DNA of 63,946 bases, filler included, from Basidioascus undulatus (lineage: Eukaryota): the NCBI GenBank assembly GCA_000826855.1. It is 4 parts of 4 records of this genome, joined end to end, with 100 filler letters (N's around TTAATTAATTAA, not from the genome) between each part and the next. Parts side by side here need not be neighbours in the genome. Positions count along the whole stretch, not along the records: positions 16,104 to 32,071 come from JTLS01000611.1; 3 more parts are not named here. One strand, written 5' to 3'. Shown here in pieces: positions 17,489 to 20,168 of this stretch. The position numbers and the translations under genes are program-made. The first letter of the stretch is position 1, and each line of letters opens with the position of its first letter. The notes under the pieces are model-generated. The model did no database searches and was not told the DNA's origin. It saw only the letters and a program-made list of their open reading frames with translations.

Positions 17489-20168
17489 ATGAAGCTTGAC
17501 GCGACCGACCTGCGCTACATCAGCAACGATGGTGCCTCTCCCCCTGCTCCCTGTCCCTCCCCCGCCTAACCTCATGAACCACCCCAGAGTTCCGCGTCCT
17601 CACCGCCACCGAGATGGGCAGCAAGAACCACGAGATCGTGCCCTCCGCTCTGATCGCGCAGATCTCGGGGCTGCGCTCGGGGGGCGTCAACAAGCACCTC
17701 GGCCAGCTCGCGAAGCGCAACCTCATTGCGAAGGTGCAGAATGCCAAGTGTGCGTTTTGGGTGCTGAGAGGAATGAGGTGCGAGGGGAGGAGGGGCTGAT
17801 TACGGGTGGAATGCGGGGACAGATGATGGGTACCGGTTGACGTACGGAGGGTACGACTACCTTGCGATGCGCACGTTTGCGAAGCGCGATACGGTCTACT
17901 CTGTTGGGAACCAGATTGGAGTGGGGAAGGAGTCTGGTCCGTATTTCATCATCCTCCTTCTTCTCTTGCCGTTCGTGTTGACCCCCCTCCCCCGCCAGAC
18001 ATCTACGTCGTCGCGGACTCGGCAGGGAAAGAGATGGTCCTCAAGATTCACCGGTGCGCACCGCTCTGGATACCGCGGAAGGGTATTTGGAGCTCATGCA
18101 TGGGAGTTCAGTCTCGGCCGCATCTCTTTCCGAGCGATCAAGTCCAAGCGGGACTACCTCGGCAAACGCAAGTCCGCGTCGTGGATGTACATGTCTCGTC
18201 TGTCCGCTCAGAAGGAATTCGCATTCATGAAGGTACGGTCTCCCCCTTCCCACCTTCCTCTTCCCCTTCCCCCTTCTCCCTTTCTCTCTCGTCCCCCTCA
18301 CTGACTCACCCCCCTCCCCCCTCACCTCTCATTACCACGAACTCCAGGTCCTGCACGAGCACGGTTTCCCCGTGCCCACCCCAATCGACCAAGCGCGCCA
18401 CTGCATAGTGATGTCCATGATCGACTCGTTCCCGCTACGGCAAGTCGACGAGGTCCCTTCCGTCGGGGGGCTCTACTCGGACCTGATGGACCTCATCGTC
18501 CGGCTCGCGCGCTCGGGCTTGATTCACGGCGACTTTAACGAGTTCAACATCCTCATCCACCGCGTCACGGGACAGCCGGTCTTGATTGACTTCCCGCAAA
18601 TGGTTTCGGTTAAGCATGAGAATGCGCAGTAGTGAGTCGGTTTTCCTCCTCTTGCCATCTTCCCTTCTCCCTCCTTCCTTCCATCCCTCCATCCCTCCAT
18701 CCTCCTCGACACCCCGGAACTGACGCGCACCCCCCCCCGCGCGCACCCAGCTACTTCGACCGCGACGTCGAGTGCATCCGCCGCTTCTTCCGCAAGCGCT
18801 TCCGGTACGAGTCGTCGCGGTACCCGACGTTCGCGGCCACGCTCGGCCTCGGCGCGGACGGCCCCGCGCTCGACGTCGAGGTTGCTGCGAGCGGGTTTGG
18901 GCATAAGGAGCAGAAGGCGCTGGAGGATGTGCGTTGTCTTCTCCTCTCCCCCTCCCCTCCCTTCTATTTGGGGCGAAGAGACTTTCTGGTGGGATGGGAT
19001 GAGGAGCTGATGTGCGTGGATGGGGAGCAGTATATGGCTGTTGTGAAGGAGGAGGAGGAGGAGGAGGAGAGCGAGGAGGAGAGCGAGGAGGAAGGAAGCG
19101 AAGAGGGGAGCGATGGCGAGGAGGAGGACTCGGCCTCCGCCCCCGCCGCCCAACCATCCGCCTCCTCCCCCTCCCACAACGGCGAATTCCACACCTCCCC
19201 GTCCCTCCCTCCCGCGCCCACCCAGTGCTGGGGCACAACCAAGAAGTCGCGCCGCTGCACGCGGCGCGTGAAGGACGCCGCGCCCGTGGCGGACTGGGGT
19301 GCGGGCGTCGAGGGCGACGTGCCCCGCTTCTGCCATCAGCATTCGAAGGACATCCTTGGCGCGAAGGGCTTCTTCTGCCCCAGAGGTCAATGGGTCGAGT
19401 TTGACGGTGCGTCGCATGCCCCCTCCCTCCCCACCTTTTTCAGCTCGACTCCCATCTTCTTTCCTCTCTTTCCGCGTTCCACACAGACTGGATCCCCGAG
19501 TCTGTCTCAACACGTACGCAAATCCTCCTCCGCGTCCTAATGGAAACGACCGTCTCGTCCGTCTCCCTCCCCTCCTTCCTCTCCCCTCCCTGCCCTCACC
19601 TTCTCTCCCCCTCTCCCCCCTCGTCAGCACCGAAGACAAGCCCGGCTTCATCTACTGCTACTCCCTACGTGGCCTCTCGACCCCCGCCCTGTCTTACGTC
19701 AAAGTCGGCCGCACAAATAACCTCAACCGGCGCCTCGACGAGTGGGCTAAGCAGTGCGCGTCGCGCGACCCGGTGCTGCGGGACCACTTCCCCGGTGCAG
19801 GGAGGGCGGGCAGCCGCATGCGCGCGACGCTGCAGGTCGGGAGCGCCGACGAACGGTGCAGGTTCGTTAATCGGCTCGAACGTGCGTGCTTTCCCTCCGT
19901 TCCTTTCCTTCTCTTCTTTTCCTTCTCTTCATACTTTCCCCTCTCTTCCCATGCTGAAACAACCCCGCACCACGCACCAGGGCTCTGCCACATTGAGCTC
20001 GCGGATCTCGAGCAGACCGCGCCGACCGCGCGCCAGAAATGCCTCGACTGCGGCGTCGAGCACAAGGAGATCTTTGCCGTCCCGCGCCTACCGGACGGGT
20101 CAGAGTACGAGGTGACCGTCCGCCCGCTGATCGAGCGGTGGGAGCGATTTGTGGCGGAGTGCTTGTGA
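17489..20168 (+). CDS. RIO2: RIO2 atypical kinase continuing in frame into a Zn-motif plus T5orf172/Mug113 (GIY-YIG-like) domain
   Basis: [88 protein letters not shown]. Then an acidic tract, [12 protein letters not shown]...RFCHQH, GFIYCY...[44 protein letters not shown] and IERWERFV. No stop in between. Confidence 0.88.

What the first reader, a model, noticed from the sequence alone, without database searches (positions are those of the whole stretch)
17489..20168. RIO2 kinase fused in frame to a Zn-motif plus T5orf172/Mug113 (GIY-YIG-like) nuclease module
Seen: the exon starting at 19031 runs without a stop from the Rio2 acidic tail ([10 protein letters not shown]...) into [12 protein letters not shown]...RFCHQH. 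Three further canonical introns then give an intact GFIY...KVGRT...RRLDEW...RLE...C-x2-C...HKEIF domain. There is no Met between the acidic tract and the Cys motif, no intergenic space and no separate Rio2 stop. Known: Rio2 is an essential pre-40S maturation kinase/ATPase, and fungal T5orf172/Mug113 proteins are normally stand-alone GIY-YIG-superfamily proteins of unknown role. Inference: either a real kinase-nuclease chimera that could bring a nuclease-fold domain to pre-ribosomes, a deletion that fused two neighbouring genes, or a mis-join in the GAG-repeat tract.
Basis: partly seen in the sequence, partly recalled or inferred. Interest (0 to 1): 0.72.

Follow-up and report, generated by a model that had tools for sequence, protein, structure and literature searches.

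The report
Assembly mis-join mimicking a gene fusion
The apparent fusion of a ribosome-building kinase with a nuclease-like protein in this fungus is almost certainly an assembly error: two ordinary, separate genes were stitched together at a short shared stretch of DNA.

Summary
The open frame is in the assembled sequence: 11 exons (17489-20168) give 614 aa, Rio2 then a Cys-motif/T5orf172-MUG113 module. It is almost certainly not in the organism. Of 3 public runs laid here, none has a listed contig bridging 19155-19177. In X1 a 24.5-kb contig follows RIO2 to 19177 and leaves; a separate 29.9-kb contig enters at 19155 with 13 kb of other sequence before it. Spliced run X3 (same sample) has the same two loose ends and 880 other letters upstream of the Mug113 exon. 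That tip also carries a 47-base piece of another contig. No homolog shows the fusion (0 of 150, 0 of 120). The join is a 23-bp Ser/Pro-codon overlap about 75 bp past the GAG tract. Limits: contigs only, one informative sample, Mug113 5' part not located. Verdict: artefact, about 95%.

The parts
17489..18928 (+). RIO2 exons 1-7: winged-helix Rio2_N domain and RIO kinase/ATPase domain (aa 1-319); real, single copy
   Evidence: introns 1-6 seen as joints in spliced run X3
19031..19154 (+). Start of the last RIO2 exon: acidic GAG-repeat tract and start of the Ser/Pro-rich tail; belongs to RIO2
   Evidence: X3 loose end at 18928 reads into 19031; X1 record 3 fits 19082-19177
19155..19177 (+). 23-bp C-rich overlap (codons for Ser-Ala-Ser-Ser-Pro-Ser-His, aa 361-368) shared by the RIO2 locus and the Mug113 locus; the false join
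   Evidence: loose ends behind 19177 and before 19155 in X1 and X3; occurs once in G000; codon phase
19178..19406 (+). 3' part of an exon of the Mug113-like gene: end of its Pro/Ser-rich N-terminal region and the C-x-C...C-x-x-H motif. Its 5' part is not in the window.
   Evidence: X1 record 4 and X3 record 14; matches basidiomycete Mug113-like proteins; Cys/His columns nearly invariant
19487..20168 (+). Last three exons of the Mug113-like gene (19487-19556, 19628-19881, 19981-20168): T5orf172/MUG113 domain, CxxC-H motif, stop
   Evidence: introns 8-10 seen as joints in X3, whose contig reaches 20305

Best explanation
Two ordinary, unlinked (or at least distant) single-copy genes were mis-joined by the assembler. 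SHOWN: in independent contigs RIO2 continues past 19177 into other sequence, and the Mug113-like gene is preceded before 19155 by other sequence; the two loci share an identical 23-bp stretch; the conserved RIO2 tail lies at the tip of contig C1168. INFERRED: coverage dropped out in the C-rich, low-complexity Ser/Pro-coding stretches of both genes. That left a RIO2 dead end and a Mug113 dead start, which were joined through the 23-bp overlap, and the flanking bases were lost. The join is in frame because the overlap is a run of NCC codons read in the same phase in both genes (inferred). Function by family knowledge: RIO2 encodes a normal Rio2 pre-40S kinase/ATPase of roughly 480-530 aa (estimate). 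The second gene encodes a stand-alone Mug113/Yfs1-like GIY-YIG-superfamily protein with a disordered N-terminus, most likely a Zn-binding, DNA-repair-type nuclease or DNA-binding protein (inferred, untested).
For:: X1 record 3 (24,463 b, depth 48.3) fits 19082-19177 and runs off; X1 record 4 (29,935 b, depth 41.5) fits 19155-20900 after 13,071 other letters. X3 (spliced) has the same two loose ends, and its record 14 has 880 other letters before 19155. No listed record of 3 runs bridges the place. Rio2 tail motif at G000:C1168:25408-25548(-), 210 b from the contig tip, open to the tip, ending in W-stop; a tail profile from 93 homologs hits C1168 (E 1.4e-16) and nothing in the window; 94 of 120 Rio2 homologs carry the motif; both true flanks are absent from G000; the outer 47 b of the C1168 tip copy the inside of C2347, a second chimera at the same gap; the pieces give at least about 135 aa from the kinase end to the tail motif (my count), against 100-188 (median 132, n=77) in homologs; no fused homolog or neighbouring Mug113.
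Against: Only contigs were available, and they drop rare variants. X1 and X3 are one sample, flagged as a possible source of this DNA. X2 (other study) has no listed cover over about 19044-19156, and its contig starts at 19157 with 22 letters from another locus, so it does not test the junction. The link from X1 record 3 to C1168 was not seen directly: it rests on single copy number, the motif and the sizes (24.3 kb run-on against a 25.8-kb contig). The contig with the Mug113 5' part was not found in G000. Table 7 left 14 loose ends unshown and table 8 left 30 pieces unshown. X3 is labelled 'DNA?'; its RNA nature is inferred from its spliced joints.
Confidence: 0.95

Rival explanations
1. A real, strain- or culture-specific rearrangement (microhomology-mediated translocation or large deletion at the 23-bp overlap) in the DNA from which G000 was assembled, giving a tail-less Rio2-Mug113 protein from the RIO2 promoter.
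For: The assembled junction is clean and in frame. X2, from another study, has no listed contig with the unfused arrangement. Microhomology is also the mark of real MMEJ events (established knowledge).
Against: The RIO2 tail still exists in G000, at a ragged and chimeric contig tip, not joined to a Mug113 5' part. Both flanking 30-mers are missing from G000. X1 and X2 differ from the window at only 1 listed base in 4 kb, so they look clonal with it, and X1 is unfused.
Confidence: 0.04
2. A genuine, evolved Rio2-nuclease chimera that brings a GIY-YIG-fold domain to pre-40S particles.
For: Intact frame, canonical introns and intact motifs in both halves.
Against: Spliced contigs show two different transcripts at the junction. 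0 of 150 Mug113 homologs and 0 of 120 Rio2 homologs carry the other half. 0 of 80 RIO2 loci have a Mug113 hit. No paper in the library holds both 'Rio2' and 'T5orf172'. Intact halves are expected if both are normal genes.
Confidence: 0.01

Closest known systems
Fungal Rio2 (RIOK2) atypical kinase/ATPase, Pfam Rio2_N PF09202 + RIO1 PF01163
   Same: Winged-helix domain, RIO domain, HGDFNEFN and DFPQ motifs, acidic tract; 71-82% identity over exon 6 to the fungal Rio2 hits listed. Head-to-head with a GNAT gene as in 3 of 80 metagenome RIO2 loci.
   Different: The window model lacks the basic C-terminal tail found in 94 of 120 homologs; that tail is on contig C1168.
Basidiomycete Mug113/T5orf172 proteins (PF13455, PF10544); S. 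pombe Mug113 and S. cerevisiae Yfs1/YPL034W by family name
   Same: Cys-Cys...Cys-His motif, GxIY...KVGR...R...E core, CxxC-H-EIF end; 339 relatives at E<=0.001; invariant G, Y, K, G, R, W, C, E columns.
   Different: Homologs have a Pro/Ser-rich N-terminus of median 206 aa (28-536; 59 of 150 scored). The window keeps only about 24 aa of it, with Rio2 in place of the rest. No direct comparison with the yeast proteins was run.
Overlap-driven assembly chimera at a short low-complexity repeat (general knowledge)
   Same: Short shared stretch, both true flanks lost, orphan gene end at a contig tip, further chimeric tips nearby.
   Different: Here the join happens to be in frame and inside coding sequence, so it mimics a domain fusion.

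Membership tests
Rio2 kinases (5' half) | N-terminal winged-helix Rio2_N domain | tested here: met
   PF09202 60.2 and 31.7 bits against cut-off 27
Rio2 kinases (5' half) | RIO domain with catalytic and metal-binding loops | tested here: met
   PF01163 88.9 bits; HGDFNEFN and DFPQ present and invariant in 35 homologs (its F and N, D, G columns)
Rio2 kinases (5' half) | Conserved basic C-terminal tail of basidiomycete Rio2, within the window model | tested here: not met
   No tail-profile hit anywhere in the window; hit on C1168 at E 1.4e-16. This fails for the assembled model, not for the gene.
T5orf172/MUG113 (3' half) | Pfam domain over the curated cut-off | tested here: met
   PF10544 34.6 bits (cut-off 20), PF13455 25.4 bits (cut-off 22.3)
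T5orf172/MUG113 (3' half) | Conserved Tyr, Gly, Arg, Glu core and Cys/His motifs | tested here: met
   invariant or nearly invariant columns in a 32-row alignment; their catalytic or Zn-binding roles are recalled, not tested
T5orf172/MUG113 (3' half) | Own start codon and Pro/Ser-rich N-terminal region | tested here: inconclusive
   X3 record 14 has 880 other letters upstream, of which only 30 were visible; not found in G000
GIY-YIG nucleases | Nuclease activity and fold | not testable with these tools
   no solved relative by sequence at E<=1; no fold was predicted
Genuine gene fusion | Independent DNA spans the junction | tested here: not met
   0 of 3 runs have a listed bridging contig; X1 shows both unfused loci, X2 is uninformative
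Genuine gene fusion | One transcript carries both halves | tested here: not met
   spliced run X3 has different sequence behind 19177 and before 19155; contigs, not reads
Genuine gene fusion | Same architecture or adjacency in relatives | tested here: not met
   0 of 150 and 0 of 120 proteins; 0 of 80 loci; no close relative of the organism was among them
Genuine gene fusion | No orphan remainder of the parent gene elsewhere | tested here: not met
   orphan RIO2 tail at the tip of C1168

The most novel reading that the evidence does not exclude
The culture behind this assembly carries, in some or all cells, a real microhomology-mediated rearrangement that swaps the conserved tail of the only RIO2 for a Zn-motif GIY-YIG-like module, and is viable with it, while the sample behind runs X1/X3 is unrearranged.
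Probability: 0.04. Interest if true: 0.5.

Novelty: not a real feature. Interest (0 to 1): 0.04.

Why it matters
If the fusion were real it would show that the conserved Rio2 tail is dispensable and would put a nuclease-fold domain on pre-40S particles. The evidence says otherwise. The practical lesson is that this assembly (2992 contigs) makes chimeric joins at C-rich, Ser/Pro-coding stretches, and such joins can be in frame, so other 'fusions' from this genome need a read or contig check first. The gene model should be split.

Tried and rejected
Mis-join inside the GAG tract: rejected; X1 records 1 and 3 overlap there by their lengths and the break is at 19155-19177. A second full RIO2 or second Mug113 copy in G000: one match each. 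Deletion between close neighbours: X1 runs on about 24 kb and 13 kb. X2's 22 loose letters as the true Mug113 upstream: rejected, they come from C2469:5008-5029 and are followed there by 8 bases shared with 19157 onward. Locating the Mug113 5' contig in G000: no match with a 30-mer or a 16-mer; C1169 showed no useful link. Window neighbours as a scaffold: rejected, the window is separate contigs with N spacers. Word-index search with the Mug113 exon found nothing (weak evidence); the HMMER search did. Exact DNA search of JGI metagenomes for this organism: 0. No RNA holder was listed on record. Genes on C1168 and downstream of Mug113 gave no synteny hits in 80 loci. Second tail hit C2393 (E 0.07) treated as chance and not followed. 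Earlier-findings look-ups were empty. No structure or complex prediction was run, since the result would not bear on the junction.

Full report
1. The observation. The window is four separate contigs joined by N spacers; the finding lies in G000:C2561 (window 16104-32071). Eleven exons from 17489 to 20168 splice at GT-AG introns into a single 614-aa frame. Exons 2, 3 and 6 score over the Pfam cut-offs for Rio2_N and RIO1, and exon 10 for MUG113 and T5orf172. There is no stop or Met between the acidic tract and the Cys motif. Each half has one match in the assembly. The best Rio2 hits by identity are basidiomycete proteins (up to 82% over exon 6).

2. Independent sequence breaks the frame at one place. 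Three public runs hold the region; all are contigs, and X1 and X3 are one sample that may be the source of this DNA. Laid on 16900-20900, no listed record bridges 19155-19177. X1 record 3 (24,463 b, depth 48.3) fits 19082-19177 and then runs on in other sequence. X1 record 4 (29,935 b, depth 41.5) fits 19155-20900 and has 13,071 other letters before it. X3 is labelled 'DNA?' but shows 9 of the 10 introns as GT..AG joints and the tenth as a loose end, so I read it as RNA. It has the same loose ends at 19177 and 19155, and its record 14 carries 880 other letters ahead of the Mug113 exon. Read by eye in the window's frame, both 30-letter loose ends are stop-free and Ser/Pro-rich. X2, from another study, does not test the junction: it has no listed cover over about 19044-19156, and its contig begins at 19157 with 22 letters that come from C2469 through an 8-base match. 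One search left 14 loose ends and 30 pieces unshown.

3. The missing RIO2 end is in the assembly. 94 of 120 Rio2 homologs end in a basic motif (consensus); many of the other 26 are short models of about 300-370 aa. The window model lacks it. A homolog's tail finds G000:C1168:25408-25548 on the minus strand (E 1.8e-7), 210 bases from the contig tip, in a frame that is open to the tip and ends in Trp-stop. A profile of 93 tails scores it at E 1.4e-16 and finds nothing in the window. The outer 47 bases of that tip are a copy of the inside of C2347, so the assembly made a second chimera at the same gap. The two true flanks of the overlap are absent from G000, and the 23-mer itself occurs once. Window part, loose end and C1168 part add up to at least about 135 aa from the kinase end to the motif (my count), against 100-188, median 132, in 77 homologs. 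I did not see X1 record 3 aligned to C1168; that link is inferred. The contig holding the Mug113 5' part was not found.

4. Relatives. None of the 150 listed Mug113 relatives (of 339) matches the Rio2 half, and none of the 120 listed Rio2 relatives (of 4283) matches the Mug113 half. Of 80 metagenome RIO2 loci (of 377), 21 have the tail and 0 a Mug113 hit; of the 45 with at least 1.5 kb downstream, 12 and 0. Both profiles lean to basidiomycetes, so ascomycete tails or Mug113 genes could be missed. The GNAT gene upstream of RIO2 has a counterpart in 3 of the 80 loci, all three with the normal tail. Mug113 relatives have a Pro/Ser-rich N-terminus of median 206 aa (59 of 150 scored), which fits the 880 extra letters in X3.

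5. Mechanism. Shown: two loci share 23 identical bases and the assembly passes from one to the other there. Inferred: poor coverage in C-rich low-complexity coding sequence left two dead ends that were joined by their overlap. The overlap is a run of TCC/GCC/CCC codons read in the same phase in both genes, which explains the intact frame. The real genes are a normal RIO2 and a stand-alone Mug113-like gene. Rio2 is described as a pre-40S factor, ATPase-like kinase and export adaptor (PMC10068337, passages seen). Mug113 and Yfs1 are described as GIY-YIG-like, non-essential, of unproven nuclease activity, with genetic links like those of YEN1 (PMC12719033, two passages seen). No supplements were read.

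6. Rivals. A real rearrangement in the sequenced culture (0.04) cannot be excluded without raw reads, but it does not explain the ragged, chimeric tail contig or the lost flanks. An evolved fusion (0.01) is contradicted by the spliced contigs and by the homologs. A search for papers holding both 'Rio2' and 'T5orf172' found 0; 'Mug113' with 'fungi' listed 6, seen as a listing except the one read; two searches were seen as listings. Earlier scan findings were empty.

7. Verdict. Not a real feature: an in-frame assembly chimera at 19155-19177 (confidence 0.95). Interest 0.04.

Noticed in passing
window 19571 (intron 9): Both X1 and X2 read T where the window has C: probably a base error of the assembly in a C-rich tract.
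   Followed up: no
window 16381-17222, minus strand: GNAT acetyltransferase gene (weak PF00583 hit) head-to-head with RIO2; two minus-strand introns (17030-17101, 17163-17222) seen in X3; a similar neighbour lies upstream of RIO2 in L026, L028 and L034.
   Followed up: partly
G000:C1168:25712-25758 (end of L007): The last 47 bases of the contig duplicate an internal stretch of C2347: a chimeric contig tip.
   Followed up: yes
window 16004-16103, 32072-32171, 48158-48257: Spacers of 44 N, 12 letters, 44 N separate about 16-kb contigs; adjacency across them means nothing.
   Followed up: yes
P0174, P0185, P0193 (Mycena): Several Mycena Rio2 records are named 'Tudor domain-containing protein', and three run on into or end in an unrelated Tudor-like protein; probably merged gene models of neighbours, not checked.
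   Followed up: no
window 18929-19030 and 19882-19980: Introns 7 (102 b) and 10 (99 b) are stop-free multiples of three, so retention would keep the frame; X3 shows them spliced.
   Followed up: no
window 20467-23057, minus strand: Long Ser/Pro/Arg-rich reading frames convergent with the Mug113-like gene; no Pfam hit; X3 has a contig from 20471 onward.
   Followed up: no
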